A DNA stretch of 64,000 nucleotides. Origin: Escherichia coli. GTDB lineage: Bacteria > Pseudomonadota > Gammaproteobacteria > Enterobacterales > Enterobacteriaceae. The DNA lies in NCBI GenBank assembly GCA_025336685.1, contig GCA_025336685.1_4717.1; one strand, given 5' to 3'. The notes beneath the pieces were generated by a model. It did not search any database. It was not told the origin of the DNA and saw only the letters and a list, made by a program, of their open reading frames with translations. Below, piece after piece: positions 1-40,126 of this stretch. Every line of letters begins with the position of its first letter. Position 1 is the first letter of the stretch. A program made the position numbers and the translations under genes.

Positions 1-61
1 TTCCAGTCTTTTACAACAGCAGGAAGTCGGCTATTGTAACCTTCAGGCAATCTCTCAATCA
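1..61 (-). CDS. hypothetical protein, 5' fragment (gene continues beyond window start)
   Basis: ATG at c(59..61) preceded by AGGAG about 9 nt upstream; reads MIERLPEGYNSRLPAVV... to the window edge; ATGA-type overlap with the stop of 55..492. Confidence 0.45.
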
Positions 62-492
62 TCGGTTTCTGCTCCTATATCACGTTTGAGGTCGGCCATC
101 AGTTTTTCATAATGGTCTTTTATCACGTTCGCAATAACGAATTGCACTTTTCTCACTAGCTGCTCATCGGCATCACTGAATGTAAAAAGCTCACACACAT
201 CAATCGGTTGTGATGCACCACCAATACGGTAGGTTTTAGTCGATGCGCGCTCAGCAATGACGGGGAGCGGTTCCACAGCGTTCAGTGCGGTACAGATTTC
301 CGTAACGAGTTCTTGAATGCTGCTTCTGCCTTCGATAATAACAGAACAGCGATAGACATCCACCTCGTTAAGCCGTTCAACGACATCCGCCCTGATTTTG
401 AAATTTCCAATAAGCGAGCTCACCAAAGTGCTATGCCAGTTGTTCACCACCCCGACCAACAGCGGATGATTCTCAAGATCTCTTCTATTCAT
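55..492 (-). CDS. hypothetical protein (145 aa)
   Basis: ORF with ATG start and GGAG RBS 7 nt upstream; no recognisable motif. Confidence 0.6.
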   Translation of the reverse strand: MNRRDLENHPLLVGVVNNWHSTLVSSLIGNFKIRADVVERLNEVDVYRCSVIIEGRSSIQELVTEICTALNAVEPLPVIAERASTKTYRIGGASQPIDVCELFTFSDADEQLVRKVQFVIANVIKDHYEKLMADLKRDIGAETDD

Positions 493-571
493 CAGTTAGC
501 TCCTAAATAGCGCTACAACTAATTTTTAATGGAAGGGAATATGTTTCCCTTCCTTGGGTTAGTTTAATGCG

Positions 572-847
572 TCATGCAGCTTTACAGCTCGCGTAACATA
601 CCAGTGTTCCGTTGTTGATTGCCTCAACAACATCCTGGGTCAGTTTGGTCGCAAGTTTATTATCCGCACTCGGTACGTAATAACCTTCTCCTGTTTCAGT
701 GACTAGGCGATAACGTACTAATCCTACCGCACGCTCGACGCGTAGCACCTTTTCAAGTTTGTGTTTGATGATCTTCGTCAGGCTGACGGCGTCTGATGCG
801 TAGATTGCTTTATAAACCTTGTTCTTTGCTGTCGGTTTCATCAACAT
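572..847 (-). CDS. hypothetical protein (about 91 aa)
   Basis: ORF track gives 572..910; internal ATG (M22) has AAGGAAA RBS and removes the overlap with 870..1703. Confidence 0.5.
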   Translation of the reverse strand: MLMKPTAKNKVYKAIYASDAVSLTKIIKHKLEKVLRVERAVGLVRYRLVTETGEGYYVPSADNKLATKLTQDVVEAINNGTLVCYASCKAA

Positions 848-869
848 GGTTTCTGTTTTCCTTGGTTTA

Positions 870-1703
870 TCACGATGCCAGGTCAGCGATATCCCAATGG
901 GTATAACCAACCTCGCGGATGAGCTCTGCTGTCTCTTCGAACAGTGGGGTAGGGCTAATAACCGGTAACCATTTCCCCTCTCGGGTTATCTTGACTTCGA
1001 CGGTCTGTAAGTTCGTGTTCCAACGAACATCATAAACCAGCGCATAGCCAAGAGGATGAACAAGTCCATCTTGGTTATATGTCTCCAAAAGACCTCGTAC
1101 GTCTTCTTCGTAGGATGTTTTCGACAAGACAGCACGTACTCGTCGCAGCCTCTTCGTGATAACCTTTCCCAGCTCGATGCTCTCCCAGCCTGTCATGACG
1201 CAAGGATTACCATCGCGACGAAGAGACCGAGAAATATAAATAGAATCGTTCGTGGTAAGGTGTACCCACCCAAGATCGCAGTATGCGACAGGTCGTGGTG
1301 ATTCTCCTTCGATAACCGTCGTTTCATCCAACATCGCCACAACACCGCAGTCTGCGAACTCCGGCGATACTTCATCCAGCATCTTAATACGGCTTTCTTG
1401 GCCGGTATGGTCAGGATCGACATGCGCGTAGTAGTAATTAGGCTCTATCGCACGGTATTGCGCAATGCTTCTACGGAAGTCGGTATCCTGCATTCCCAGC
1501 GGGTGGTGATACGCAAGCTGTTGCTTTATACCATCCTTGATTACCAACAGAAGATCTTCGCGATCTGATGCGGGATCCTCCACCACGATGTATTTAACAA
1601 TCGCTTTCAGGTTCTTAACGATGCTATCTGGAAGTTTCTCAATATCCCGCGCATCATAGACACGGTTAACTACAGTGTTTACAAGGTGTTTTGATAAGCT
1701 CAT
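870..1703 (-). CDS. hypothetical protein, paralogue family A (duplicated HPLG motif)
   Basis: 277-aa ORF, ATG start; shares YHHPLGMQD and LVHPLGY...VEVKI...W.P...HWDI.DL blocks with 1781..2638 and 2927..3709. Confidence 0.7.
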   Translation of the reverse strand: MSLSKHLVNTVVNRVYDARDIEKLPDSIVKNLKAIVKYIVVEDPASDREDLLLVIKDGIKQQLAYHHPLGMQDTDFRRSIAQYRAIEPNYYYAHVDPDHTGQESRIKMLDEVSPEFADCGVVAMLDETTVIEGESPRPVAYCDLGWVHLTTNDSIYISRSLRRDGNPCVMTGWESIELGKVITKRLRRVRAVLSKTSYEEDVRGLLETYNQDGLVHPLGYALVYDVRWNTNLQTVEVKITREGKWLPVISPTPLFEETAELIREVGYTHWDIADLAS

Positions 1704-1780
1704 CGATGATCTCTCTTTGTTATTTCTACCGATAACGCGGCATAAGGGGACAATGATGTCCCCGTGTTAGAATCAACTAC

Positions 1781-2638
1781 TTACGGCTTCAAATCCGAAA
1801 TATCCCATCGTACGTAACCTGTACGCTCAATTTCATGAACCAGTTCCTCGGTTTGTTTCTCAACACCGACAACGGGAACCCAATTCAACTGTTGGGTGCG
1901 TTTACCGATGTTAACCTCGACACGCTGCAGATCATCATTCCAACAAACCCCAGCCGGTTTCACAAAACCCAGCGGGTGGATAAAACTAAGATCGTCGCTG
2001 AAATCACGAAGAACGCGCAACGTATCGATGGTTGAAGGGTTATCACAGCGAACAAGGCGTACGCTTTGCAATTTATCGTATACCGCTCGAGCTACACGTT
2101 CATCGCGCCAGTTCGTCATGAATACCGGTTTTATACCACGTTTTAGAAGATGATCGATCTGGATTGCGATGTTATCGTGAACATACATGCAACCCTGTTC
2201 GGTTTCGGTGTTGCAGCCACCGTCCTCTAACCGGTTCGGATACGTCTGATGGTCTACCGTCACAGCAACTCCTTCAGCGAGCGTGGTCAACGGAAGAAGA
2301 CGTTGTAGACTCGTTATTGGATAATCAGGCGACATCCCAGGACGGATATGCGCCATCGTACCCCAACTGTCAGGGAATCCGTGTCGGTATGTGTATTGCC
2401 TGAATACCTCATCCTGCATCCCTAACGGATACCATCGTGCAAGCCGCTGTTGCTCGCCATCCTGAATAACAAAAAGCATTTCTTTGCGATTCGGCCATCG
2501 ATGATGTTCCACGGTCAAGCCATCAACAACCGGTCTTAAGTTGACTTTGATATGCTCGGGAAGTTTATCCACCTCTTCGCGACGGTAAAATCGATCGACG
2601 ACGATGATATCAACCTTCCCGTGATTGAACCAATTCAT
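1781..2638 (-). CDS. hypothetical protein, paralogue family A
   Basis: ORF track 1781..2671; M12 start (MNWFNHGKVDIIVVD) has GAGGGAG RBS, aligns with the paralogue N-terminus and abuts the stop of 2640..2930. Confidence 0.7.
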   Translation of the reverse strand: MNWFNHGKVDIIVVDRFYRREEVDKLPEHIKVNLRPVVDGLTVEHHRWPNRKEMLFVIQDGEQQRLARWYPLGMQDEVFRQYTYRHGFPDSWGTMAHIRPGMSPDYPITSLQRLLPLTTLAEGVAVTVDHQTYPNRLEDGGCNTETEQGCMYVHDNIAIQIDHLLKRGIKPVFMTNWRDERVARAVYDKLQSVRLVRCDNPSTIDTLRVLRDFSDDLSFIHPLGFVKPAGVCWNDDLQRVEVNIGKRTQQLNWVPVVGVEKQTEELVHEIERTGYVRWDISDLKP

Positions 2639-2639
2639 G

Positions 2640-2930
2640 TTAACTCCCTCTGTGGTGCGAAAACAAAACATCTAATTGCTCCCGTTGTTCTTTTAAGTAT
2701 GCGGGAAGCTGGTCTTCCCGTACCGTTCCGATTTCCAACGTGATATACCAGCGTTGTTCGGAAGCCTGCCATTGAAAACTGCTCTGTAACCGCAGGATGC
2801 TAGGATCGTGTACCTTGCTTGCACTGTAACGGTTGAACCAATTCAGGTATCCTGCTTTCCCTTCCTCATCAGCAACGTAACGCTGCACGCTGTTCTTCCC
2901 TTTGTTTTCGTATCCTGTTGCGTGTATCAT
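2640..2930 (-). CDS. hypothetical small protein
   Basis: ORF track 2640..2984; internal ATG (M19) with AGGAGA RBS gives ATGA overlap with the stop of 2927..3709. Confidence 0.5.
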   Translation of the reverse strand: MIHATGYENKGKNSVQRYVADEEGKAGYLNWFNRYSASKVHDPSILRLQSSFQWQASEQRWYITLEIGTVREDQLPAYLKEQREQLDVLFSHHRGS

Positions 2931-3709
2931 GCGAACGTTTCTCCTGTAACGTGTTGTGGGCGTTGTAGCATGGTAGCATCCCATTGTACGATCCGGCTCC
3001 GGCTTACCCGCATCATGACGGATTCATCGTCAAGCCCCGGTTGCGCAACCGGCAACCAACGTTCGTTAAGCACCTTCGCTTCAACCCGTTTCTTGCGTGG
3101 GTTGTAACGCACCTCGCTAACCCAAGCGAATCCAAGCGGATGCACAACCCGTGGATAATACGTGCGAAGCAATTGATGCATCCGATCCAGTACCTCCAAG
3201 CTCGCATCGGCCATGTATGGTTTCACCATGGTAAGCTTTTTGGTGTAATACGTCCCAACGGTATGGTTCGCCCACCCGGGAAGCACGTGATGGAATCCTA
3301 CCTGTAATTGTGTATTGCCGTTCACCTTCAGCCAACCGTATTGTCCAGCCGCACGTCCCTCGTCAGTATCGATCCATGTAAGTATATCGATGAACGCACG
3401 ATCGGTGATCTCGATGCGTTCCACCCGTTCATCCAACGCACCACGTACCACGAATCCGCTCGCGCTCACCCGCGCAGGATGCTGGCTGCGATGCGCGTAC
3501 CAATTCTTGTTGCCGGTAAGCAGGTAAGGGTACGTGTGAGCACCCCGCCAAACAACCGTTCCGTTCGTCCCATCAACACAGTGTACATACATCCCATCTT
3601 GACCGTTGTTGTAGCATGCTACCTTCACGCATTCGTTTTGAACATCGCTCGGTAACGCCAGGTATTCACCTTCGGTAAACATGGTATCAAAAATGATTTC
3701 TTCGTTCAT
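2927..3709 (-). CDS. hypothetical protein, paralogue family A
   Basis: 260-aa ORF, ATG with GAGGA RBS; C-terminal VVHPLGFAWV...VEAKV..RWLPV block shared with family A. Confidence 0.7.
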   Translation of the reverse strand: MNEEIIFDTMFTEGEYLALPSDVQNECVKVACYNNGQDGMYVHCVDGTNGTVVWRGAHTYPYLLTGNKNWYAHRSQHPARVSASGFVVRGALDERVERIEITDRAFIDILTWIDTDEGRAAGQYGWLKVNGNTQLQVGFHHVLPGWANHTVGTYYTKKLTMVKPYMADASLEVLDRMHQLLRTYYPRVVHPLGFAWVSEVRYNPRKKRVEAKVLNERWLPVAQPGLDDESVMMRVSRSRIVQWDATMLQRPQHVTGETFA

Positions 3710-4415
3710 CTAAAAAGATCCTCTGTTTTTCACGTTAATTAAACAACGTATTGATTTCTATTTAACGCAATACGAACATCGTACGTATGCATCATGAAGG
3801 TAATATAGTCGTGAAAGGATTTGCATTAAAGCAAGGGTAATTGTTTTGTTTTAAGAAGGGATGGATGATAGCGGTATCTGAAAGGAGAAGGATTTTAAGG
3901 AAGGTCTTGATTGAAGTAAGTGAAGAGGATGATTATTTCGGTTTAAGTAAGTAGGTAAGTTATCGTGTTATTGTTTTTTGTCTTAATGGTTTTATCGTTT
4001 TATCTGTTGTTTATATAAATCAAATTAAATTATAAAGTCAGTTAAGATGTTGGTTAACAACGTTCAACTCAAAAAACCATTTGTGATACTCTTCTTCACG
4101 TTGTTCATCAGAGTATCTCGTCTATACTCATTGCATTCGTATACGACATAACCGTTATACGCTAACGCTACGCTTATAGCTTGATAACTCTAAGGATAAA
4201 AACATAAACTCGCTTCGCTCGTTTAGTTTTTCTTTTTCTTAGAGTTATCCTGTTGCTCGTCTCTAAAGGACTTCGCTCCTCCCCCGTCCCCCGAAGGGGC
4301 CGAGGTCGTGGAAATTTTACTTTCCAAATACATTTACAACATCTGTAAACTTTTACTCCAGGTACTTAATCTTATCATTAGAAATTATAAAGAGAAGAAT
4401 AAACACAAACATAAA
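3710..4415. promoter_or_regulatory. 700-bp AT-rich non-coding region with short direct repeats
   Basis: No ORF of 60 aa or more; GTAAG/AAGG-type short repeats around 3880..3960; motif GGTAATATAGTCG (about 3798..3812) recurs near 40037; GC-rich inverted repeat around 4273..4312. Confidence 0.4.
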
Positions 4416-4447
4416 CCTTCCTCCAACCCAACAGGGAAGGAGGAAGG
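4416..4447 (-). terminator. conserved hairpin element, copy 1 (variant loop AACA)
   Basis: CCTTCCTCC-AA-CCC-AACA-GGG-AA-GGAGGAAGG immediately 3' of minus gene 4461..5354. Confidence 0.55.
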
Positions 4448-4460
4448 GATACAATGGTTA

Positions 4461-5354
4461 TTATTCGGAAACGTTGTAACCGAACACCGCTTTACCGTAG
4501 GTGTGAGTACCGTCAGCTAATGACAGCACCAGCACGTGGTTGTACGTAGCGTTAACACCCTTGTCGGTAGACTCGGTGGTAGCACCGTTGTAGACGAAAG
4601 TAGCCGTTTGCAGATTGGCTTTCAGCTCGGTGATGATCTCATCACCCACACCCGTCTGCTCTTTGATCAGCGTGGTCAGGTTACCCGCCAGGCTTTCATC
4701 GATCTTGGTTTCATCACTGGTAATAGCTTGTAAACCTGCGGTGTAGGTGCTGAAGTCTAACGGATAGGTTAACAGACGCGCTGAGGTCTTGGTACCATCG
4801 CCTTCATCAACGTAGGTTAACTTACCCAGGTTGGTAACCTTGATGATGTTAGCCAGATCCAGCGTGGTGTTATAAACTTTAACTTCAACGGAACCGTACC
4901 AAGCCAGCGAATCTTCTTTGGCCTGCAGGGTGATCGTCTGGATACCATGATCGTCGAAGGTAACCGGCGTAGCTAACGTATCGGCTTTGATGTCTTTCGT
5001 TTTATCTAAGAACTTCTCACCGGAAGGCGTGATCATACCGTAGCGTTGAGCTACAAGGTCAACCACGTCACCAATAGTGGTGTTAGCATTAACGTTAACG
5101 CGTACGGCGATCTTCTGGAACCACTTAGCCAGATCCAGACGATGATAGGTAACATCGCGGTCATTGAAGTAAGGTGTACCTTCACCAGGGCTAAGCGTTA
5201 AAGTTGCATCTGGAGCAGAATCGCTTTTGGATTTAAGAACGTATTTAAGGTCGGTGGGTTTGAAGTTGGCACCAGTGTCGGCGTTGAGTGTGTTAATCTC
5301 ATCAACGATAAGTTGCCAAGGTGTTTTTAAAGTAAGTGATACTTGAGCTGTCAT
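4461..5354 (-). CDS. hypothetical (probable virion) protein, paralogue family B
   Basis: 297-aa ORF, ATG with GAGGT RBS; shares the (Y/W)YxR(I/V/L)xLxxx aromatic block and overall size with 16415..17320, 18237..19088, 19099..20034. Confidence 0.7.
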   Translation of the reverse strand: MTAQVSLTLKTPWQLIVDEINTLNADTGANFKPTDLKYVLKSKSDSAPDATLTLSPGEGTPYFNDRDVTYHRLDLAKWFQKIAVRVNVNANTTIGDVVDLVAQRYGMITPSGEKFLDKTKDIKADTLATPVTFDDHGIQTITLQAKEDSLAWYGSVEVKVYNTTLDLANIIKVTNLGKLTYVDEGDGTKTSARLLTYPLDFSTYTAGLQAITSDETKIDESLAGNLTTLIKEQTGVGDEIITELKANLQTATFVYNGATTESTDKGVNATYNHVLVLSLADGTHTYGKAVFGYNVSE

Positions 5355-5497
5355 TTTCTACCTCTATGGTTGTTACATCACTCTCAAAAGATGTAAGTGT
5401 TTACAGAAATCAATATATTTTATATTAAATGTGAATATTATGGAGAACGACTCCGACTCTCCTTTTCGACCATCAAAAAATCAGAGGATACATAATC

Positions 5498-6040
5498 ATG
5501 GCCTTAGACTTTAACAAAGCAGCGAAATCCCTTCTGCTTGATCTGATCAACACCAAAGCAACCCGCGCACTGTCCGAAGAAGAACTGCAGTTCGGTACTC
5601 CGGCGGCATCTTCCGAAAATGCTAAGAACACCGTTATCCAGCTGAATGCTGCGGCTGAAGCAGAAAACCTGCAGGGTACTCAGCAGTTCTACTACGATCG
5701 TCTGGCTCTGTCTGACGTTTTCGCTGATGTAACCAGCGATGTTACTTTCGAACTGCCGCACGGTACTGACAGCATTAAGGCTTCTGAGCTGGTAAGCAAG
5801 CTGGTCACCAAGTTCGGTCTGGCTTCCCTGACCGGTGAAATCAATGAAGAAACCTTCCAGCTGTCCGCAGGTACTGTTGGTCAGGTAACCCTGACTGCGA
5901 TCGAGGGTGGTATGGTATATACCGGTACTCTGCAGGTTGCCCTGACCTACGCAGCAGCACCGAAAGACAATCTGGCAACCGTTCTGGCGGATAACGTAGC
6001 TGATGGCTTCGTGAAACCTGAAGTTGCTGTCGTTGGCTAA
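5498..6040 (+). CDS. Ala-rich small protein with strong codon bias (probable abundant structural or decoration protein)
   Basis: 180-aa ORF, ATG with AGAGGA RBS; near-exclusive use of preferred enteric codons (ctg, gaa, ggt, aac, ttc). Confidence 0.75.
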   Translation: MALDFNKAAKSLLLDLINTKATRALSEEELQFGTPAASSENAKNTVIQLNAAAEAENLQGTQQFYYDRLALSDVFADVTSDVTFELPHGTDSIKASELVSKLVTKFGLASLTGEINEETFQLSAGTVGQVTLTAIEGGMVYTGTLQVALTYAAAPKDNLATVLADNVADGFVKPEVAVVG

Positions 6041-6050
6041 TAAACACATA

Positions 6051-6100
6051 GAGCAATAGTATGGGTTTTGTACAGCTCGGCTATTGCTCTTCTACAATTT
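6051..6100 (+). terminator. putative hairpin terminator after 5498..6040
   Basis: 9-bp inverted repeat GAGCAATAG...CTATTGCTC followed by a T-rich stretch, just after the TAATAA stop. Confidence 0.35.
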
Positions 6101-6239
6101 GGTTGTAACAATCTGCGTGGTTGCACGCTTATCTTTCTCATTGAACGCTTCGTATGAAGCGTGGTGTTGAAAGGGTTGTGGATCTCCTCAAGCGGCCAGG
6201 GACCCAGACCAACCTGAATAAACACAAACACATGTTAAG

Positions 6240-6272
6240 CCCCTCCTCAGCCCTTATCGGGTTGGGGAGGGG
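6240..6272. terminator. conserved hairpin element, degenerate copy
   Basis: CCCCTCC-TCAG-CCC-TTATC-GGG-TTGG-GGAGGGG between convergent genes 5498..6040 and 6336..6971. Confidence 0.4.
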
Positions 6273-6335
6273 TCTTATACGTCTTTATACGTTTCGTTCG
6301 TTCTGGTGTGTTTTAGAACGGTTTACAGCAGGGTT

Positions 6336-6971
6336 TTATTCAACACTGAAACCGTTCAAACAGATGGCTTCGTAACGTTTACGTTCACGGCGTTTGCGTG
6401 CCTGCCAACCGTAAATGAACTTCTCGTCTTTCTCACGACGTTCCGCTAATTCGATGTAATAGGTGCTCTGCATGTCCAGCATTGCATCGATGAGATAATC
6501 CTTACCGGTTGCGCCACGCTTAGCGATGTAGGCATCAAGAGCCGCCAGTGTTTTGGGACCCATTGCGCCATCAGCGTCGATATTTTTCCAGTAAGTTTGG
6601 CGGTTGTTCATGACGTTCAGATAACGCTGAAGGTTCTTAACCGGTACGGTTTTGCCTGCGTTGATACCCAGGTCAAAGAGACGATCAGCCAAGAACACGG
6701 AACGTTTCATGACCTCATCAAGCTTCATCTTATCCCAGAAGTGGGTCTTGTAGATGAAGAACGCCATTTCCGTGGTAAGGTTACGCATATTACCGTCCCA
6801 CCCGAATTTCGTTTTCAGCGTGGTTTTGTACTGATCCGCAAGCGCTTTCGTAATGCCGTGGTTCGTGATCCCACCAGAGTCATCGGGATCGTCGACGTAA
6901 CCTGCTTCGATGCTAGTTTTATCACGAATGATAAATTCGCAAGTAAAATCTTTTTCAGTAATCTTGGCCAT
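6336..6971 (-). CDS. endolysin, GH108-type peptidoglycan hydrolase with probable C-terminal PG-binding domain
   Basis: 211-aa ORF, GAGGAG RBS; N-terminal EAGYVDDPDDSGGITNHGIT matches the GH108 EGGYxxDPxDxGGxTxxGIT signature. Confidence 0.75.
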   Translation of the reverse strand: MAKITEKDFTCEFIIRDKTSIEAGYVDDPDDSGGITNHGITKALADQYKTTLKTKFGWDGNMRNLTTEMAFFIYKTHFWDKMKLDEVMKRSVFLADRLFDLGINAGKTVPVKNLQRYLNVMNNRQTYWKNIDADGAMGPKTLAALDAYIAKRGATGKDYLIDAMLDMQSTYYIELAERREKDEKFIYGWQARKRRERKRYEAICLNGFSVE

Positions 6972-7097: not shown

Positions 7098-9146
7098 TCA
7101 AATACCTTTGGTTCCCTTCACGTGATGTGCAATTTCTTCAACCATTGCACGCAACGCACGAAGCTGCTGGTCGTGTTCGTACCAACCGCCCAACAGAACC
7201 CCGCTATACACCATGGTGTCAAGACTTAACAGTCCTTTATCTGATACGTTGATCATTTCCGGGAACTGTTCTTGAACACGCTGTGCGATGACACCGATCT
7301 TCTCTACATCAGGATCGTAGTTGTGACGGAAACGGGCAAGCCCGCTGCGCGCCATTTCACGTAAACGTTCGCTAAGAGATTCTGGATGGTCTTTCAGGTA
7401 ACGGATGTCATGTTTACTACGCTCATCTGAACGGATGTAAGCGTTAGGAACATCGATGTTACTGTTGAAGTACAGTGCGCTACCACCACCTGCAGAGTTA
7501 CCCCAATAGAAGCGTGTGATCTCCCCACCGCCATTTTCCGTGATGATAACATGTTTACCTAAACGCGTGCCACCATTGCCGTCAACGAAGACCAGTTTGT
7601 TTCCGCTGTAAGAACCCCAGAACAAACGTGTGTCGATGATGTGCGTTGCAGCGAGACGAGCGTTACGCGGTGTAGAATACACGGTGTTAACATCTTGCTG
7701 CGCTTGCGCATCGGAAGCGATACCGTAGTTCTGTACGTTCCCTAAACCTACCTGCGCTTTCGTAACAGCATGTGGGTTATCTCGACGGTTAGCGTGAGCG
7801 TTAACCAGATCGCCCGCCAGTTTTTGAATAGCCCAGTTGGTAGACTGTGGTGTCATGTAACGGTTCGTTGCAGAACCACCTTGCGCCTCAGCTTGGTTAG
7901 CGGTTGGGTAGTTCTCAACGCTTCCTAACCCCACTTGTGCTTTAGACACTTGGTGTGGGTTGTTCTTGTCAGCGATGTGTGCATTAAGCGGAACTAACGC
8001 AAAGGTCTCAATGGACGCTTTGGTTGTGTTCGGTGCCATTAATCGGTTAGCTGCAACACCGGCACGCGCTTCATCCTCAGACGCCATTGGGTAGTCTTGT
8101 ACATTCCCTAACCCAACCTGCGCTTTGGTTACCCTGTGTGGGTTGTTGTAATCGGCTTTATGTGCGTTAAGCGGAATCAATGCGAACTGTTCAATCGCTG
8201 CAACGGTACGCAACGGCGTCATGAAACGGTTGTTCGCGGTTCCGCCCTTCGCCTCGCTATCCGAAGCGGTAGGGAAGTTATCAACGTTCCCAAGGTTAAC
8301 CTGCGCTTTGGTGACGCTATGCGGGTTATCTTTACGGTTAGCGTGAGCATCGACTAGGTCACCAGCCAGTTTAGCGATTGCCCATCCAACCGTTTGTGCG
8401 GTCATGTACCGATCAGGTGCGGTACCGGCTTCTGACTCCGCCTTGTTTGCGGTAGGGTAGTTCTGTACGTTACCTAGTCCAACTTGGGCTTTGGTGGTTT
8501 CGTGTGGGTTATCGGTACGGTTAGCATGCGCGTAATGCAGATCGGTAAGATTTTTATCCGCTGCTTGCATGTCTTTGCGTAACTGATCGATTGCTGCCCA
8601 GAGACGGTTATCGGACGCAGCGTCGCCGATAAGTATCGCGGCTTTCAGTGAATAGATCGCTAAGCAAAGATGTTCGGTACCGTAGATAGCACTAACGTGG
8701 TGGATGTGTGGTTCAGGCGGATAAAGTTCCGGTTTGTTCTTGATGTCGTCCCAGTTGATCGGACGATCGTCAAGTTTGAGTTCTTCGATAGCCTGATATA
8801 ACGCGTCAATAAGACTTACGTAAACACCACCGATGATACGATAGTCGTTAACTAACGTACCCTCGATGTCATCGTTGATGATGGCGATAGCCGCACAGAT
8901 TTCTTTACCGGCGTAAAGCGTAGCGTCCTGATACAAGAAGATGGGTTTGTAGTCCACGCCTCGCACCAGTGTCTTACCGGTAAGCTTTTCAGTGATGACC
9001 AGACTTTCGGTGAAGAACGGTCCGCCGTCGAGGGCGTAACATTTATTCTCGGTTCGTGGAACGGTGTGCTCTTCACCAACGATGTGGTTGCTATCGAGCG
9101 TGCCGGTCCAGTCCTCGGGGTACTTCAGGGTAATTGGTGTTGACAT
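7098..9146 (-). CDS. tail fibre protein with C-terminal intramolecular-chaperone (S74-like) autoprocessing domain
   Basis: 682 aa; at least 4 tandem repeats of about 40 aa (NPHxVTKAQVGLGNVxNY...); C-terminal SDERSKHDIRYL matches the SDxRxK chaperone motif; N-terminus paralogous to 12825..14978. Confidence 0.8.
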   Translation of the reverse strand: MSTPITLKYPEDWTGTLDSNHIVGEEHTVPRTENKCYALDGGPFFTESLVITEKLTGKTLVRGVDYKPIFLYQDATLYAGKEICAAIAIINDDIEGTLVNDYRIIGGVYVSLIDALYQAIEELKLDDRPINWDDIKNKPELYPPEPHIHHVSAIYGTEHLCLAIYSLKAAILIGDAASDNRLWAAIDQLRKDMQAADKNLTDLHYAHANRTDNPHETTKAQVGLGNVQNYPTANKAESEAGTAPDRYMTAQTVGWAIAKLAGDLVDAHANRKDNPHSVTKAQVNLGNVDNFPTASDSEAKGGTANNRFMTPLRTVAAIEQFALIPLNAHKADYNNPHRVTKAQVGLGNVQDYPMASEDEARAGVAANRLMAPNTTKASIETFALVPLNAHIADKNNPHQVSKAQVGLGSVENYPTANQAEAQGGSATNRYMTPQSTNWAIQKLAGDLVNAHANRRDNPHAVTKAQVGLGNVQNYGIASDAQAQQDVNTVYSTPRNARLAATHIIDTRLFWGSYSGNKLVFVDGNGGTRLGKHVIITENGGGEITRFYWGNSAGGGSALYFNSNIDVPNAYIRSDERSKHDIRYLKDHPESLSERLREMARSGLARFRHNYDPDVEKIGVIAQRVQEQFPEMINVSDKGLLSLDTMVYSGVLLGGWYEHDQQLRALRAMVEEIAHHVKGTKGI

Positions 9147-12824: not shown

Positions 12825-14978
12825 TTATAACGTTTCGAAGTCTTTTGCCTTGATGACTGCGTTGAAGTTGGCAAGGAATTCCTTAAGTAATGCTTGGAAA
12901 ACATCGCGGAACGCCGCGTTCGTCTTCAAGCTGGTTAAATAATCGTTCTTAAGGTAATCGCTAAGCTTACCGATCTTCTGCATCGTCACGCCTTCATCGT
13001 TCTCTCCGGGTTCTTGGCTATTGATATTAGCCCACTTGATCCCTTCGAGATCACCATCAGCAAGGAAGTTAGCTGGCGTCTCATCATCGTTCAGGATTTT
13101 GATCGTATCGCTGGATTCAATACCGCCGTAAGCTTCCAGAAGCTGGTTGACGGTCAACTTATTGACGTTGATTGAACCATTAGCACCATCGATACCGAGT
13201 CCGGTACCCGTGATAGACGTTACTGAAAGATCGATTGGTCCGGTTAACTTACCCCCATTGATAGGGAGCGCGCCAACCTGTTCGGCTGTGTGTGTATGAT
13301 CGGCTAACGCGGCGAACGCTGCAATCGACTTGTAAGTCGAGTACGGTGTCATGTACGCTGTCTGGTTAGTCCTGTCGGCAGCTTGCACGTCGGTGGCGAC
13401 AGCAAAGTCCTGTACGTTCCCTAACCCCACTTGTACCTTGGTTACTTCATGCGGGTTACTCTTATCGACAACGTGTGCCGCAAAACCATCACCTGCTAAA
13501 GCGATGATCGCTGCTTTTGTCGCAGCCGGTGTCATATAGCGGTTGGTCGCTACACCGGTTTGTGCTTCCACATCAGAAGCAACAGGGTAGTTCTCAACAC
13601 TCCCCAACCCAACCTGGGTTTTCGTTACCCTGTGTGGGTTCTCGGTATTTGCGATGTGACTACTGAACCCTTGACCAGCCATTTGCTCGATCGCGTAACG
13701 AACAAGTATTGGTGTCATGTACTTGTTGTTAACCTGACCATCGATCGCTTCTTGGGTAGTAGCAACCCCGAAGTTCTGCACGCTTCCCAGCCCAACCTGG
13801 GCTTTGGTAACACCATGTGGGTTATTGGTGTTACCGATATGTTCGGTTACGGTTGGGGTGATTAGCGCTGCGATAGCGGCGGCTGTGGTCGCAGGCGTCA
13901 TGTATTTGTTGTTAGCAACACCCGCACCAGCTTCCCCATTAGACGCTACACCGTAGTTCTGTACGTCCCCCAGCCCTACCTGGGCTTTCGTAACAGCGTG
14001 AGGGTTGTTATTATCCTCGGTATGGGTTGTTAACGTAGCGTTGACATGATCGATGCGTGTACTTAAGCCGTCCGTGATTGCCTTGATTGCTGCTCGTACA
14101 CCCGCTGGAGTCGTGTACAGATTAGTGGCTGTACCGGTAACGGTTGTATTATCATCGGCTACACCATAGTTCTCAACGTCCCCGAGTCCCACCTGGGCTT
14201 TGGTCACCTTGTGTGGGTTGTTGCGGTTACTGATGTGTGCGGCAGCACTATCACCACTAAGGTTAGCGATCATCTTACGTGTCATCGCCAACGTCATGTA
14301 CAGATTTTCACCGACAGTTTCCAGATCGCTCTCGGTCGCTGTTGTGAAGTTCTGTACATTCCCCAACCCAACTTGGGCTTTCGTGACGCCATGGGGATTA
14401 TCACGTCGATTCTCGTGCTGCACTAACGCAGTCATTGCTTTATTGAACCCTTCTTCAAGCGGTCCTTTCAATGACTCGATTGCAGCCACCACATCGTCCC
14501 ACGTCATCGTGTCGGTTTCGACATTATGTTGGTGGTTGATTGGTGGGAATACGGAAGGAACGTCAGCAACCTTTTCCCAGAACGTAACGCGAGGGTCATA
14601 AAGGTTGTTGGCTAAAACGTTAAGAATTTGTTGTTGATCAAGTGTAAACTCACCCCCCAGTGAATAGTAGTTCAGTTGCAACTGTCCACTGAATGCGGTG
14701 TCCAACAGCATGATGGAACCGTATAATTCCAGGCCGGTCAGCGCAGCCATGGCACGGAAGGGGTGAGTGCATAAAAAGTCAACGCCTTCTTCCAGATACG
14801 CGTTTGTTTCAGGGTTGTAGATCTTTAACCCATTACGAAAATAGGGTGCGTATTTAGGAACGAGAAAGTTAAATCCGGTCCCCGTGGAAGGACGGACAGT
14901 GACGAGTTCTTCTGGAACCCATGCGCCATCCAAATTCCCCTGCGGGTTATACGGAAGGCGTTTAATTTCATCTGTCAT
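12825..14978 (-). CDS. tail fibre protein (paralogue of 7098..9146, no chaperone domain)
   Basis: 717 aa; at least 6 tandem NPHxVTKAQVGLG(N/D/S)V(Q/E)N(Y/F) repeats; N-terminal 200 aa alignable with 7098..9146. Confidence 0.8.
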   Translation of the reverse strand: MTDEIKRLPYNPQGNLDGAWVPEELVTVRPSTGTGFNFLVPKYAPYFRNGLKIYNPETNAYLEEGVDFLCTHPFRAMAALTGLELYGSIMLLDTAFSGQLQLNYYSLGGEFTLDQQQILNVLANNLYDPRVTFWEKVADVPSVFPPINHQHNVETDTMTWDDVVAAIESLKGPLEEGFNKAMTALVQHENRRDNPHGVTKAQVGLGNVQNFTTATESDLETVGENLYMTLAMTRKMIANLSGDSAAAHISNRNNPHKVTKAQVGLGDVENYGVADDNTTVTGTATNLYTTPAGVRAAIKAITDGLSTRIDHVNATLTTHTEDNNNPHAVTKAQVGLGDVQNYGVASNGEAGAGVANNKYMTPATTAAAIAALITPTVTEHIGNTNNPHGVTKAQVGLGSVQNFGVATTQEAIDGQVNNKYMTPILVRYAIEQMAGQGFSSHIANTENPHRVTKTQVGLGSVENYPVASDVEAQTGVATNRYMTPAATKAAIIALAGDGFAAHVVDKSNPHEVTKVQVGLGNVQDFAVATDVQAADRTNQTAYMTPYSTYKSIAAFAALADHTHTAEQVGALPINGGKLTGPIDLSVTSITGTGLGIDGANGSINVNKLTVNQLLEAYGGIESSDTIKILNDDETPANFLADGDLEGIKWANINSQEPGENDEGVTMQKIGKLSDYLKNDYLTSLKTNAAFRDVFQALLKEFLANFNAVIKAKDFETL

Positions 14979-15010
14979 GATGCGCCCTTTACAAGTTGTT
15001 AGTAAGTGTG

Positions 15011-15028
15011 GGATACCCTGGGGTATCC
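15011..15028. promoter_or_regulatory. inverted repeat upstream of 15083..16363
   Basis: GGATACC-CTGG-GGTATCC about 55 nt upstream of the start, followed by CTATAAAATAAG (TATAAATA-like). Confidence 0.3.
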
Positions 15029-15082
15029 TGTGTTAACAGCGGTAAAATATTACTGTAACTATAAAATAAGGGGGCCTCTCCC

Positions 15083-16363
15083 ATGTATACATTGGTAAAA
15101 ACTTACGGATTACCCGTAGGTTCTGGCACGGCCTGGACAGCACTTGAGGCGGGTGAAAGTGTCCTGAGTACGTTGTTCTCAGCGTATCAAAAACTCAAGA
15201 TCCAGGTTCATGAAAGCTATGCTGACCAGCAACAAGTTATTGATCTGTACACATTTCAATCCGAGCTTCAAAACAGCAATGACACGCTCAATGCGTGGTT
15301 GAAAGCGAAATCGGATGCACATACCAACCTTCGAGGACAGCCTGGTGAGCTGTCGATTAAAACCCACAAGCTTTATTGCCATGACGTTATTACCGTAGGC
15401 TTTCTCCCTAAAGTCGGTAATAGTGGTTATCATCCGAGCAATGCGATCCCTGAGTCGGAACGTACCGATATCCTGTTGACGAAAGCGAATACGAATTACG
15501 AAAATATCGGCAAACATTGCTTGTTCACCGTAGGCGGTTATATTCATCCTCATGTTTACGGTAAAGACGTTGGCGTCTATATCCAGGGTGGGTTCGAGAC
15601 AGCACAGCGTAGCCAAGAAAACGATATCGGCATGATTGATTTTAGCCGTATCGGGAGTTTGGAAATCCACGCCATCACAGAAGAGATGATTGCTGATTCC
15701 ACGAAGCTCTTGCCGTATAAGGACGAGATGTACTTACGGCTACCACGTAAGGTCGCCGAAGATGAAACCGTTGCGCTGGTGTTCGGGGGATATCTACACC
15801 TTCTTGACGATTGTTACACGATCGTTAGTGACACGACGGCAAAAATAAACTGCAGAAACATGTTTCTGTATGAAAGATACTTCCGCTCCCGCAAATACCT
15901 TGATTTAACGTCTCTTGGTATTCTGTTGAACGAAGAAGACCCGCAGTCCGATATTGTTGCCAATCGTTTACTGTCTGATAAGACTTTAAAAGCATGGGTG
16001 ACGCATCCCTGCAGTTTCTGGGTGTATATCAAAGCAACATCGATTCAGGTTACACAAGAACCTTTACCACGAAGTGGCGTACCAGGACAATATTTCTTAG
16101 GTAAGAAACCGGAAGGACTGATTCGAGCCGATCTCGGTGAGTTACCGGCCTACGTGCAGACCTATGAAAAACCGTTATGGGTACTTCACTCACGCTGGGG
16201 GCTTCGTAAGAACATGTTGTTTGAAAACACATTGTACAAACATACACGCGTTAAGCGGCTTAACGATACGCCTTATCTTCACCAGGTCTGGTTGAAAACG
16301 CATGCGACGTTGCAGACAGTACATAAGCTCGAATTGATCGATTCCAGTCAGAAAAACAAATAA
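15083..16363 (+). CDS. hypothetical protein (426 aa)
   Basis: ORF with ATG and AGGGGG RBS; plus-strand island inside a minus-strand block. Confidence 0.7.
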   Translation: MYTLVKTYGLPVGSGTAWTALEAGESVLSTLFSAYQKLKIQVHESYADQQQVIDLYTFQSELQNSNDTLNAWLKAKSDAHTNLRGQPGELSIKTHKLYCHDVITVGFLPKVGNSGYHPSNAIPESERTDILLTKANTNYENIGKHCLFTVGGYIHPHVYGKDVGVYIQGGFETAQRSQENDIGMIDFSRIGSLEIHAITEEMIADSTKLLPYKDEMYLRLPRKVAEDETVALVFGGYLHLLDDCYTIVSDTTAKINCRNMFLYERYFRSRKYLDLTSLGILLNEEDPQSDIVANRLLSDKTLKAWVTHPCSFWVYIKATSIQVTQEPLPRSGVPGQYFLGKKPEGLIRADLGELPAYVQTYEKPLWVLHSRWGLRKNMLFENTLYKHTRVKRLNDTPYLHQVWLKTHATLQTVHKLELIDSSQKNK

Positions 16364-22505: not shown

Positions 22506-22532
22506 GATCGGTCCTCCAAGGAGCCAGTGTAA

Positions 22533-31723: not shown

Positions 31724-31931
31724 CGCTCACCTCCATCAGATTGAAAATTATCATGCATAACGCATTTCCCTTTTCTTGTTCTTATCAAACTGACAGCCGA
31801 CGGTTTCCAGTATCGCCCCCAGCGCGAGAACGACCTTACGTGTTGTCTATGCCTTATTAATCGCAGGCTTCTGTCACCTAGGTAATGTAAGCGTCAAATT
31901 TTTTCTATTCGCAACGATAAACGGCATAAAT

Positions 31932-34279: not shown

Positions 34280-34428
34280 TGAAAGTATCCTTTACAGAAT
34301 TAACTTATATAAGTCGGTCGATAGACCATAGCGTACACGCGTGCATGCGCCACTATAGTATCAGTAAACACTTACCGTTATTGAGGTCGTGATACAACAC
34401 TAAAAATGCCGCATAACTTTTCCCTACG

Positions 34429-34833
34429 TCACAAACGACGCAGGCGATAATGGATGGAACGATTGGTGCAATATGAACGGAACAGCGGCAATTGCGCAAC
34501 TTCCGCAAGACTCATATTAATTCGCAGGTGTTCAATAACGGCGCTGTAGTTATCAGCAATACGATCGCTCAATAACTCTTCTGCCAATAAAGGAAGACAA
34601 TCGACAACAATCGCGATCACATCCTCATTAACATAACGCACCCGAACACTCAACGGACGTTTGTCTGGGTTGTAAGTTGGATCCGCCAAACGACGTTCAA
34701 TATCACGCGGATAGCTCGTCAGTAAATGGTAATAACCATTGTCATAACGATTGATGTACTCACACAGCACACCAACGTTCTTCTCTGGCGGTAAACCTGT
34801 TTCGTCATAGTGGATACGCAAACATACCACCAA
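34429..34833 (-). CDS. hypothetical protein (start uncertain)
   Basis: 134-aa ORF without ATG near the 5' end (TTG/GTG only); protein-like composition. Confidence 0.4.
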   Translation of the reverse strand: MVVCLRIHYDETGLPPEKNVGVLCEYINRYDNGYYHLLTSYPRDIERRLADPTYNPDKRPLSVRVRYVNEDVIAIVVDCLPLLAEELLSDRIADNYSAVIEHLRINMSLAEVAQLPLFRSYCTNRSIHYRLRRL

Positions 34834-39976: not shown

Positions 39977-40090
39977 GTTTGTATCCTCGGTTGTTAAGAG
40001 AAATTTACAATGATAACAGTAACCGTTGCTATCACCTAGGTAATATAGTCGCGAAATAAACTGGAGTAATACGCTTAAGACAGTATAGAA

Positions 40091-40122
40091 CCCTCTCCCT
40101 TCCCTTACGGGTTGGGAGAGGG
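40091..40122 (-). terminator. conserved hairpin element, copy
   Basis: CCCTCTCCC-TT-CCC-TTAC-GGG-TT-GGGAGAGGG immediately 3' of minus gene 40127..41494 (GUAA loop in the minus-strand RNA). Confidence 0.6.
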
Positions 40123-40126
40123 AATA

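What the first reader, a model, noticed from the sequence alone, without database searches (positions are those of the whole stretch)
3710..4415. 700-bp AT-rich gene-free region with short direct repeats
This is the only long non-coding stretch in a genome region otherwise packed at over 90 percent coding. It contains GTAAG/AAGGA-type short direct repeats (about 3880..3960), the motif GGTAATATAGTCG that recurs in the intergenic region at about 40037, a GC-rich inverted repeat (about 4273..4312) and a hairpin-element copy at its end. It could be a promoter cluster, a replication origin or iteron region, or encode a small non-coding RNA.
Basis: seen in the sequence. Interest (0 to 1): 0.5.

Follow-up and report, generated by a model that had tools for sequence, protein, structure and literature searches.

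The report
Conserved structured RNA element in Goslar-like phage
The only long gene-free gap in this Goslar-like jumbo-phage window holds a terminator, an early promoter and a fast-evolving AT-rich spacer, plus a ~290-base element that is almost invariant among relatives and looks like an undescribed structured non-coding RNA.

Summary
The window is a ~92% relative of Escherichia phage Goslar, a nucleus-forming jumbo phage. The gap 3710-4460 is real, AT-rich, and the only long non-coding stretch. Both flanking genes are on the minus strand.

In gene direction the gap contains:
1. A terminator hairpin (4416-4447) that belongs to a repeated intergenic family.
2. A ~290-nt core (4071-4362) ending in a hairpin plus T6.
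4. A promoter motif, TTTCACGACTATATTACCT (3792-3816), then a 5'UTR.

The promoter motif also sits upstream of the early gene chmA in Goslar.

The core is the interesting part. It is 95-100% identical in 17 haplotypes whose neighbouring genes are 70-93% identical; four-fold-degenerate sites next door are only 54-84% identical. It folds well (z = -5.3). It shows four compensatory pairs and many G·U-compatible changes that fit only the minus strand. It has no Rfam match and is single-copy. It is confined to Goslar-like phages and missing from a more distant relative.

My best reading is an undescribed structured non-coding RNA. A transcript-primed replication origin or a recombination linker remain possible. 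No transcription evidence could be obtained.

The parts
4461..5354 (-). Upstream flanking gene: gp022-like virion structural protein (DUF7941). Its stop codon bounds the gap.
   Evidence: ORF. Pfam DUF7941 at E=2e-51 and PHROG virion structural protein. 91% identical to Goslar gp022.
4416..4447 (-). T1: terminator-type hairpin CCTTCCTCC-TTCCC-TGTT-GGGTT-GGAGGAAGG. A U-rich tail (TTTATGTTTGTGTTTATT) follows at 4398-4415.
   Evidence: It belongs to an intergenic hairpin family with 7 exact cores against 0.94 expected. One compensatory U-A to C-G change occurs in 5 of 14 sequences. Equivalent hairpins are annotated as putative terminators in Goslar. Logan contigs carrying exact Goslar gp022 stop at its base.
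4363..4415 (-). Variable U-rich linker with one conserved block, ATAAGATTARGTA (4363-4377), just upstream of the core. It is a possible but unproven promoter for the core.
   Evidence: The linker is 78-99% identical among haplotypes, and this block is invariant apart from the single A/G position written as R. It does not match the early-promoter motif.
4071..4362 (-). Core: a ~290-nt near-invariant structured element and candidate ncRNA.
- Long-range helix P1 (4359-4362 with 4249-4252) closes a junction.
- The junction holds hairpins H2 (4332-4350), H3 (4309-4326), H4 with a cUUCGg loop (4282-4305) and H5 (4266-4281).
- Then come the long hairpin H6 (4184-4248), H7 (4167-4180), H8 (4149-4164), H9 (4120-4147) and H10 (4085-4117).
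- It ends in T6 (4071-4076).
   Evidence: It is 95-100% identical in 17 haplotypes against 70-93% for flanking CDS, and it is the top-identity 290-nt window in every comparison. Four-fold sites next door are 54-84% identical. MFE is -86 kcal/mol with z=-5.3. RNAalifold gives 13 helices; 99.7% of cells pair on the minus strand against 92.3% on the plus strand; 4 pairs are compensated against 0-1 in slid controls. There is no Rfam hit. It is single-copy.
3830..4070 (-). Fast-evolving AT-rich spacer (GC 0.305). In relatives it holds a one-directional cluster of AAGATAA boxes and an extra ~81-nt hairpin module that this window lacks.
   Evidence: Alignments show indels and 254-429 nt length variation. 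AGATAA occurs 6 times against 0.3 expected in most relatives, but the window has only 1 AGATAA and 3 GATAA. In Goslar 5 of the 12 minus-strand AAGATAA sites in the 76 kb scanned (9,000-85,000) lie in this spacer. No tandem repeat was found.
3792..3816 (-). Early-promoter-type motif TTTCACGACTATATTACCTTCATGA.
   Evidence: Further copies lie at 31889(-) and 40047(-) in the window and at five sense-strand intergenic sites in Goslar. One of these is 66-85 nt upstream of the chmA ATG. It also occurs at the syntenic site of the distant relative L012. The chmA TSS is reported within 91 nt of its ATG, and chmA is expressed at 5 mpi (PMC10541120). The general form of jumbo-phage early promoters is described in PMC7598289 and PMC8244752.
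3710..3791 (-). Putative 5'UTR of the gp021-like gene, with Shine-Dalgarno AGAGGA 9 nt before the ATG.
   Evidence: Read from the sequence. It is 75-96% identical among relatives.
2927..3709 (-). Downstream flanking gene: gp021-like hypothetical protein. It is the first gene of a variable accessory block.
   Evidence: ORF. No Pfam or PHROG family. It is replaced or diverged in group-B relatives, and the window is not colinear with Goslar beyond it.

Best explanation
The gap is a composite regulatory region at the border between a conserved late structural operon and a variable accessory-gene block. Its core is a gene for an undescribed structured RNA.

Read in gene direction (minus strand):
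1. The gp022-like mRNA ends at the T1 hairpin and its U-rich tail.
2. A ~290-nt RNA (4362 to 4071) is made in the same direction. It comes either from a promoter in the 50-nt linker or from T1 read-through followed by processing. It stops at hairpin H10 plus U6.
3. A neutral-looking AT-rich spacer follows.
4. A virion-RNA-polymerase-type early promoter (3792-3816) starts the gp021-like operon.

The RNA folds into a junction closed by a long-range helix with four hairpins inside, followed by five further hairpins.

Nearly every base is conserved, including loops, linkers and the primary sequence of the stems. I therefore infer that the RNA works by being recognised along its length by a partner, meaning a phage or host protein or another nucleic acid. 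A simple stability or termination element would not need this.

Shown: the conservation, the fold potential, the compensatory and strand-specific substitutions, the clade restriction, and the promoter and terminator families.

Inferred: that the core is transcribed, its ends, and its mode of action.
For: **Conservation**
- The core is 100% identical to Goslar over 291 nt, where flanks are 89-91% identical and four-fold sites are 84% identical.
- It is 95% identical to group-B relatives, where gp022 is 75-80% identical and four-fold sites are 54-60% identical.
- It is the best-conserved 290-nt window in ~9 kb in all five divergent comparisons.
- It is present in all 18 Goslar-like loci examined.

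**Structure**
- z = -5.3 to -5.8.
- The consensus fold has 96 pairs, and 99.7% of cells are paired.
- Four pairs are kept through double changes. One is the long-range pair 97-209. Two adjacent pairs at the H9 tip show four different pair states.
- Slid controls give 0-1 such pairs, and 0 of 500 shuffles reach the observed covariation score.
- Of the 21 variable columns in the core, 10 are unpaired and 10 of the 11 paired ones keep pairing in nearly all sequences.

**Strand**
- There are 103 G·U cells, and about 6-8 independent substitutions are tolerated only if the minus strand is the folded one (99.7% against 92.3% paired).
- The fold contains a cUUCGg tetraloop, which is stable in RNA (own knowledge).

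**Not protein-coding**
- Two 1-nt deletions 25 nt apart occur in group B.
- The only ORF that is always open is 36 aa, has no SD and covers a third of the core.

**Context**
- The T1 family and the promoter motif account for the two ends of the gap.
- The distant relative L012 has the terminator followed directly by the promoter, so the core plus spacer looks like a clade-specific insertion.
Against: - There is no transcript evidence of any kind.
- No promoter was recognised upstream of the core.
- H10 is separated from the U6 run by 8 nt, so it is not a canonical intrinsic terminator.
- Covariation rests on only about 3 independent lineages. 74 of 96 pairs never vary and are therefore uninformative.
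- The consensus structure was derived from these same sequences.
- Stems are conserved in primary sequence far more than pairing alone requires. That pattern fits a DNA-level role or recombinational homogenisation equally well.
- Other intergenic regions of this phage are also hairpin-rich, for example 6041-6335 with z=-5.4.
- Logan contigs that look transcript-bounded stop at T1. This hints that the core is not co-transcribed with gp022 at similar abundance.
Confidence: 0.55

Rival explanations
1. The region is a replication origin. The structured transcript, or its minus-sense single-stranded DNA hairpins, primes or loads the replisome. The AT-rich, repeat-bearing spacer just downstream is the unwinding and initiator-binding zone. 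This would resemble transcript-primed origins (ColE1 RNA II, T4 oriF/oriG, T7 primary origin) or hairpin ssi sites next to iterons (RSF1010).
For: - The layout fits: a structured, G-cluster-rich RNA (GGGGGACGGGGGAGGAG) lies directly upstream of an AT-rich tract with GC 0.305.
- In relatives that tract carries 5-9 one-directional AAGATAA boxes, often ~33 or 9 bp apart.
- Those boxes are clustered only here in the ~76 kb of Goslar scanned for them.
- The element is single-copy.
- Conservation of primary sequence beyond pairing needs would suit a dual DNA/RNA role.
- GCGAAGC-type mini-hairpins recur, and these are known from ssDNA origins (own knowledge).
- An RNase H-clamp protein is essential for Goslar replication (PMC13648698).
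Against: - This window has lost most boxes and an 81-nt module, so the array is dispensable or at least not strict.
- There is no tandem iteron.
- There is no GC-skew inflection or gene-strand switch.
- No initiator or replication gene is adjacent.
- The distant relative L012 lacks the whole insertion.
- The long-range closing helix with covariation suits a free folded RNA.
Confidence: 0.15
2. The core has no function as a discrete RNA. It is a conserved linker at a module boundary: a terminator or insulator hairpin stack kept uniform by frequent homologous recombination or gene conversion among co-infecting Goslar-like phages. This would resemble the promoter/stem-loop cassettes that mediate module shuffling in T4-type phages (own knowledge).
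For: - The gap separates a conserved structural block from a variable accessory block. Window 1-2676 is not colinear with Goslar, and gp021 is replaced in group B.
- L020 is a recombinant whose crossover lies inside the core.
- Long perfectly identical tracts also occur in coding DNA.
- Other intergenic regions are hairpin-rich and well conserved.
Against: - Recombination spreads a sequence but does not explain why 290 nt of non-coding DNA is retained in every genome while the adjacent spacer decays.
- The substitutions that do occur are non-random: they fall in loops, or are compensatory or wobble changes, and they are strand-specific.
- The core is the most conserved window against every divergent relative, not only against recent recombinants.
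Confidence: 0.15
3. The region is a promoter cluster. Several promoters in the AT-rich part drive the downstream block.
For: One good early-promoter motif is present. TAAGAT(A/T)A-like boxes occur on both sides of the core.
Against: - Only one copy of the validated motif lies in the gap.
- The AAGATAA boxes are not found upstream of other genes.
- The sigma-70 scan shows no enrichment.
- None of this explains the core.
Confidence: 0.05
4. The core encodes a 36-aa protein (4223..4333, minus strand: MYLESKISTTSAPSGDGGGAKSFRDEQQDNSKKKKN).
For: The ORF is open in all 17 haplotypes. It was called as a gene on one Logan contig.
Against: - It has no Shine-Dalgarno sequence, and its start codon lies inside a predicted stem.
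- It covers only 111 of ~290 conserved nt.
- Two of its three variable sites are non-synonymous, while third codon positions are invariant.
- The sequence is low-complexity.
Confidence: 0.03

Closest known systems
Transcript-primed phage and plasmid origins (ColE1 RNA II, T4 oriF/oriG, T7 primary origin) (own knowledge)
   Same: A several-hundred-nt multi-hairpin RNA with G-rich segments is encoded directly upstream of an AT-rich tract. It is single-copy and strongly conserved. RNase H activity is essential in the Goslar replisome (PMC13648698).
   Different: No sequence or Rfam similarity. No promoter was identified. No evidence of R-loop formation or origin activity. The AT-rich part is poorly conserved and partly deleted in this window.
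Large structured non-coding RNAs of phages (e.g. GOLLD, ROOL in Rfam; non-coding RNAs reported for phiKZ, PMC8244752)
   Same: An intergenic, highly structured, phage-borne element with conservation of loops and junctions that suggests tertiary or partner contacts. Function unknown.
   Different: No match to any of 4227 Rfam models, even at E<=10. It is shorter (~290 nt), confined to one genus-level clade, and not next to tRNAs.
Promoter/stem-loop cassettes at module borders of T4-type phages (own knowledge)
   Same: A terminator hairpin plus early promoter pairing recurs at gene-block borders (window 40047-40124; L012). It coincides with gene replacement downstream.
   Different: In this gap the pair is split by a ~600-bp insertion, the core plus the spacer. 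That insertion is single-copy, and its core half is far more conserved than such cassettes need to be.
Jumbo-phage virion-RNAP early promoters (PMC7598289, PMC8244752)
   Same: A conserved AT-rich ~10-nt box (TAYATTACCT) with a T-rich upstream part, found upstream of operons including the early gene chmA. 5'UTRs are ~60-90 nt.
   Different: The sequence is specific to Goslar-like phages. The TSS was not mapped here. This accounts only for 3792-3816 and not for the core.
Single-strand initiation (ssi) hairpins next to iterons, e.g. RSF1010 ssiA/ssiB and the phage G4 complementary-strand origin with d(GCGAAGC) mini-hairpins (own knowledge)
   Same: Strand-specific conserved hairpins, GCGAAGC-type loops (2 in the window, 3 in group B), and a nearby AT-rich, repeat-bearing tract.
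   Different: ssi sites are 40-150 nt, not ~290 nt with a long-range closing helix. No cognate primase or initiator link is known. This could not be tested here.

Membership tests
Any described RNA family (Rfam 15) | Covariance-model match at or near the gathering score | tested here: not met
   No match at E<=1 in window 3000-5500. None at gathering score in the whole window. The only hit in the Goslar version at E<=10 was a chance snoRNA match at 17 bits. No tRNA or tmRNA.
Structured non-coding RNA (generic) | Conservation well above neighbouring neutral sites | tested here: met
   The core is 95-100% identical, against 54-84% at four-fold sites of gp022. It is the top window in 9 kb.
Structured non-coding RNA (generic) | Base pairs maintained by compensatory or wobble changes, specific to one strand | tested here: met
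   4 compensated pairs against 0-1 in slid controls. 99.7% paired on minus against 92.3% on plus. Power is limited: about 3 lineages, and 74 of 96 pairs are invariant.
Structured non-coding RNA (generic) | A discrete transcript with defined 5' and 3' ends | not testable with these tools
   Goslar RNA-seq exists (PMC10541120) but could not be accessed. Logan contig ends gave only an ambiguous hint.
Intrinsic (hairpin + U-tract) terminator: T1 | GC-rich stem-loop followed by a U-rich tail at the 3' end of a gene | tested here: met
   A 9+3-bp stem and a tail of UUUAUGUUUGUGUUUAUU lie 14 nt after the stop codon. It belongs to a family of 7 intergenic copies and shows a compensatory change. The simple scanner missed it because its loop exceeds 8 nt.
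Jumbo-phage virion-RNAP early promoter | Conserved AT-rich motif upstream of early operons, centred near -10 of the TSS | tested here: inconclusive
   The motif recurs only on the sense strand in intergenic DNA, including upstream of the early gene chmA. It lies within the 91 nt that contain the reported chmA TSS (PMC10541120). The exact TSS-to-motif distance was not available.
Iteron-type replication origin | Array of several 17-22-bp direct repeats with regular spacing | tested here: not met
   No tandem repeats by TRF. The window has only 5-8-nt repeats. Relatives have 5-9 AAGATAA boxes with irregular spacing of 9 or 25-40 bp.
Iteron-type replication origin | AT-rich unwinding element | tested here: met
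   GC is 0.305 in 3830-4065 against 0.475 for the window.
Iteron-type replication origin | Adjacent initiator gene, GC-skew or gene-orientation switch | tested here: not met
   Neighbouring proteins have no family, or are virion or lysis proteins. Cumulative skew is flat and genes are on the minus strand on both sides.
Iteron-type or transcript-primed origin | Origin activity (copy-number peak, R-loop, primer 3' ends) | not testable with these tools
   This requires marker-frequency sequencing or DRIP-seq.

The most novel reading that the evidence does not exclude
The core and its AT-rich, box-bearing spacer are the replication origin of Goslar-like nucleus-forming phages, which has not yet been identified. 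A structured, G-rich transcript would form an R-loop at the spacer. It would then be processed by the phage RNase H-clamp (Rhc) replisome subunit to prime DNA synthesis inside the phage nucleus.
Probability: 0.12. Interest if true: 0.85.

Novelty: new member of a known kind. Interest (0 to 1): 0.55.

Why it matters
Goslar is the E. coli model for nucleus-forming jumbo phages. Their non-coding elements, promoters and replication origins are largely uncharted.

A ~290-nt element evolves at least ten times more slowly than neighbouring synonymous sites. It is present in every Goslar-like genome sampled and absent from Rfam and from the Goslar annotation. That makes it a concrete, cheap-to-test candidate for a new functional RNA or cis element.

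Published RNA-seq time courses and RNA-targeting knock-down tools (CRISPRi-ART, antisense oligomers) already exist for this phage. The work also yields a usable consensus for the Goslar early promoter and for its terminator family.

Tried and rejected
- **Known RNA families.** Rfam and tRNA scans found nothing.
- **Host or plasmid origin of the element.** No match in 5,426 complete E. coli genomes or in PLSDB. The four GTDB hits to a 20-mer were chance matches in high-GC MAGs.
- **Extra copies.** The core is single-copy in the window and in Goslar 9-85 kb. Three different core 20-24-mers find only the same three IMG/VR contigs.
- **Sigma-70 promoters and simple terminator scan.** No enrichment. 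One 10/12 sigma-70-like site at 4057-4029(-) lies in window-specific spacer and was not pursued, because host RNAP is not thought to reach this genome.
- **Tandem repeats.** None found.
- **GC skew.** No inflection.
- **Synteny in distant chimalliviruses (EarlPhillipIV, SPN3US, PCH45).** The gp022 homologues sit in tightly packed arrays with no gap, so no older version of the element could be sought there.
- **Small ORFs.** Rejected as the main explanation.
- **Generic motif discovery across all intergenic gaps.** Only the terminator family emerged.
- **Transcript evidence through assemblies of public runs.** Contigs with exact Goslar gp022 stop at T1. This line was inconclusive.
- **Literature.** No paper in the held library mentions this intergenic element, a Goslar ncRNA or a chimallivirus origin.
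- **Covariance model.** Not built. With near-invariant input it would act as a sequence profile and add nothing over BLAST.
Full report
**1. What the window is**

The region 3500-4700 matches only Escherichia phage vB_EcoM_Goslar, a 237 kb nucleus-forming jumbo phage of genus Goslarvirus, at ~92% identity. The first 50 kb of the window, searched in two 25-kb pieces, matches Goslar at 92-95%. The finding lies between two minus-strand genes. One is a gp021-like hypothetical protein (2927..3709). The other is a gp022-like DUF7941 virion structural protein (4461..5354). Goslar has the same gap (14,972-15,825; 854 bp), and nothing is annotated in it.

**2. Checking the observation**

- The gap is 3710-4460 (751 bp) and holds no ORF longer than 37 aa that lies within it.
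- It is the longest gap in a ~92% coding window. A second apparent gap was an artefact of my ORF selection.
- GC is 0.35 in the gap and 0.305 in 3830-4065, against 0.475 for the window.
- GTAAG, AAGGA and TAAGT repeats in 3860-3965 exceed shuffles (P = 0.006 to 0.0002). They do not form a tandem array.
- GGTAATATAGTCG recurs exactly at 40039.
- The GC-rich inverted repeat and the terminal hairpin are real.

**3. Anatomy, read on the gene (minus) strand**

*(a) T1 hairpin, 4416-4447.* The sequence is CCTTCCTCC-TTCCC-TGTT-GGGTT-GGAGGAAGG, followed by a U-rich tail, and it starts 14 nt after the gp022-like stop codon. Its core TTCCCTNNNGGGTTGG has 7 exact copies in the window against 0.94 expected, all in intergenic gaps. 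Goslar annotates several such hairpins as putative terminators. One stem pair changes U-A to C-G in five relatives.

*(b) Linker, 4363-4415.* It is variable except for the block ATAAGATTARGTA.

*(c) Core, 4071-4362.* Described in section 4.

*(d) AT-rich spacer, 3830-4070.* It aligns poorly between relatives and varies from 254 to 429 nt. Most relatives carry an ~81-nt hairpin module here that this window lacks. They also carry 5-9 AAGATAA boxes, nearly all in one orientation: 6 against 0.3 expected, with spacings often 9 or ~33 bp. In Goslar, 5 of the 12 minus-strand AAGATAA sites in the 76 kb scanned (9,000-85,000) lie in this spacer. The window retains only 1 AGATAA and 3 GATAA.

*(e) Promoter motif, 3792-3816.* The sequence is TTTCACGACTATATTACCTTCATGA.

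*(f) 5'UTR.* An ~80-nt 5'UTR with an AGAGGA Shine-Dalgarno sequence follows.

**4. The core**

*Conservation.*
- Against Goslar, window 4066-4376 is a 311-nt perfect match, with two further differences up to 4446. The 1 kb of flanks is 89% identical.
- I collected 18 Goslar-like loci from IMG/VR, ENA, NCBI, JGI and Logan assemblies. Together with the window they give 17 distinct haplotypes.
- The core is 95-100% identical to the window in all of them. By contrast gp022 is 75-93% identical, gp023-like 69-92%, endolysin 85-89%, and the T1-plus-linker segment 78-99%.
- In sliding 290-nt windows over ~9 kb, the core ranks first in all five divergent comparisons: 95-99% against a median of 85-92%.
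- Four-fold-degenerate sites of the adjacent gp022 are 84% identical to Goslar and 54-60% identical to group-B relatives. The core therefore changes at least ten times more slowly than nearby neutral sites.

*Fold.*
- The core alone has an MFE of -86 kcal/mol and z = -5.3.
- The 401-nt stretch gives z = -5.8 on the minus strand and -6.25 on the plus strand. Thermodynamics therefore does not choose a strand.
- RNAalifold on 14 sequences (alignment A3) gives 13 helices.
- Helix P1 (4359-4362 with 4249-4252) closes a junction that contains H2, H3, H4 and H5.
- H2 to H5 are then followed by the long hairpin H6 and by H7 to H10, ending in U6.

*Covariation.*
- 99.7% of 1344 cells are paired.
- Four pairs are kept through changes on both sides: T1 12-39; P1 97-209, C-G to G·U; and the H9 tip pairs 323-329 and 324-328, which show A-U/U-A, G-C/C-G, G·U/C-G and A-U/C-G.
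- Slid-partner controls give 0-1 such pairs, and the covariation score is 0.067 against 0.009-0.027. None of 500 shuffles reaches the observed score.
- Of the 21 variable columns in the core, 10 are unpaired and 10 of the 11 paired ones keep pairing in nearly all sequences.

*Strand.* Read as the plus strand, the same helices are only 92.3% paired. The structure contains 103 G·U cells, and about 6-8 independent substitutions are wobble-compatible only on the minus strand. Only one substitution favours the plus strand.

*Other loop features.* H4 carries a cUUCGg tetraloop. GCGAAGC-type loops occur in H5 and H6, and in H9 of group B. The significance of both loop types rests on my own knowledge.

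*Not coding.* Group B has two separate 1-nt deletions 25 nt apart. The only ORF that is always open is 36 aa. It lacks an SD and covers about a third of the core, and two of its three variable sites are non-synonymous.

*Not a known family.* No Rfam model matches, even at E<=10.

*Distribution.*
- The core is single-copy.
- It is absent from E. coli genomes, PLSDB and GTDB representatives.
- It is present in every Goslar-like locus with gp022 at >=76% aa identity.
- It is absent from the next relative, L012 (gp022 52%), where the terminator is followed within ~40 nt by the promoter motif. The core plus spacer therefore looks like a clade-specific insertion between a terminator and a promoter.
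- More distant chimalliviruses have no gap at all at this position.

**5. The promoter motif**

- Copies within 3 mismatches of TATATTACCTAGGTGA occur only on the sense strand in intergenic DNA. They lie at window 3807, 31889 and 40047, and at Goslar 43266, 49732, 160791, 166069 and 172978.
- The Goslar 172978 copy lies 66-85 nt upstream of the ATG of chmA.
- chmA is expressed at 5 mpi, and its TSS was reported within 91 nt of the start codon (PMC10541120).
- Jumbo phages with virion RNA polymerases are described as having a phage-specific, AT-rich ~10-nt early-promoter box near -10 (PMC7598289), with a T-rich upstream part in phiKZ (PMC8244752).
- I therefore read TTTCACG-N2-3-TAYATTACCT as the Goslar-type early promoter. 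This is an inference, because no TSS was mapped here.

**6. Interpretation**

The two ends of the gap are ordinary: a late-operon terminator and an early promoter.

The spacer behaves like weakly constrained DNA that keeps generating short repeats. Its AAGATAA boxes in relatives may be protein-binding sites. This window shows that most of them can be lost.

The core is under strong, position-by-position constraint. Its few substitutions follow the rules of a folded minus-strand nucleic acid. The most economical reading is an undescribed structured RNA (confidence 0.55).

One feature remains unexplained. The stems are conserved in sequence far beyond what pairing requires, since 74 of 96 pairs are invariant while neighbouring synonymous sites approach saturation. 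There are two possible explanations.
- The whole sequence may be read by a partner or used at both the DNA and RNA levels.
- The core may have been homogenised by recombination. L020 is a recombinant whose crossover lies inside the core, and the gap sits at a module border where downstream genes are swapped.

For these reasons I keep two rivals at 0.15 each.
- *Transcript-primed or ssi-type origin.* The RNA-then-AT-rich layout, the G-cluster, the boxes and the essential RNase H-clamp (PMC13648698) speak for it. The lack of skew, strand switch, initiator gene and array conservation speak against it.
- *Recombination-maintained linker or insulator.* Section 6 above gives the evidence on both sides.

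**7. A weak hint on transcription**

Two Logan assemblies (SRR32224759, SRR32224762) carry the exact Goslar gp022. Both end 0-2 nt into T1. Metagenomic Logan contigs instead break 31 nt into T1, as repeat-induced breaks should. The exact Goslar gp021 protein is not in Logan. This pattern would fit RNA-seq assemblies bounded by transcripts. If so, T1 terminates gp022 mRNA, and any core RNA has its own promoter or is a minor read-through product. I could not verify the sample type, so I draw no conclusion from it.

**8. Novelty and value**

The element is not annotated in Goslar and is not in Rfam. It is not mentioned in the papers I could search. It is a new candidate member of the broad class of phage structured non-coding elements, not a new kind of system.

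It is worth a moderate score for three reasons. Goslar is an active model phage. The data and tools to test the element already exist. The less likely origin reading would address an open question for nucleus-forming phages.

Noticed in passing
window 6041-6335: A second conserved, hairpin-rich intergenic region lies between the convergent gp023-like (5498..6040 +) and endolysin (6336..6971 -) genes. It is the second-best conserved 290-nt window against divergent relatives (~94% against a median of ~86%). It folds with z=-5.4 and contains one T1-type hairpin plus at least five further hairpins.
   Followed up: partly
window 4423, 16383, 36733, 40100, 51320, 54024, 62285 (plus weaker copies at 10616, 43780, 56329): A family of intergenic hairpins shares the core TTCCCT-NNN-GGGTTGG inside a purine/pyrimidine stem. 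They occur in both orientations relative to the genes and are probably bidirectional terminators. They also cause de Bruijn assembly breaks in public contigs.
   Followed up: partly
window 31865-31895(-) and 40030-40060(-); Goslar 43266, 49732, 160791, 166069, 172978: Further copies of the early-promoter-type motif TTTCRCG-N2-3-YTAYATTACCTAGGTGA occur, each upstream of a minus-strand gene. One precedes chmA in Goslar.
   Followed up: yes
window 1-2676: This stretch is not colinear with Goslar. Only 543-863 matches, at 79%. The accessory genes downstream of gp021 are replaced and have no Pfam or PHROG family. In group-B relatives the gp021 position holds a different 250-aa gene that shares only the first ~115 nt.
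   Followed up: partly
window about 4040-4065 (deletion point); Goslar 15,3xx: The window and L006 lack an ~81-nt hairpin module (ACATGTGTTAC...GTAAACACATGT) that Goslar and most relatives carry just downstream of the core. L022 and L023 carry an extra palindrome inserted in its loop.
   Followed up: partly
window 7699-8550 and 13527-14009: Internal and paralogous repeats at 64-85% identity link the two YomR-like, Peptidase_S74-type virion protein genes (gp025-like and gp029-like). They appear as off-diagonal BLAST hits to Goslar.
   Followed up: no
window 14599-14834, 20752-21063, 22246-22648, 28581-28921, 34119-34669: Perfectly identical tracts of 236-403 nt against Goslar occur inside coding regions. 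They point to mosaic recombination or very strong constraint in parts of the structural module.
   Followed up: no
window 4461-5354(-) and 5498-6040(+): The two divergently transcribed neighbours are paralogues; both are DUF7941 virion proteins. In distant chimalliviruses the homologues form tandem arrays of virion protein genes.
   Followed up: no
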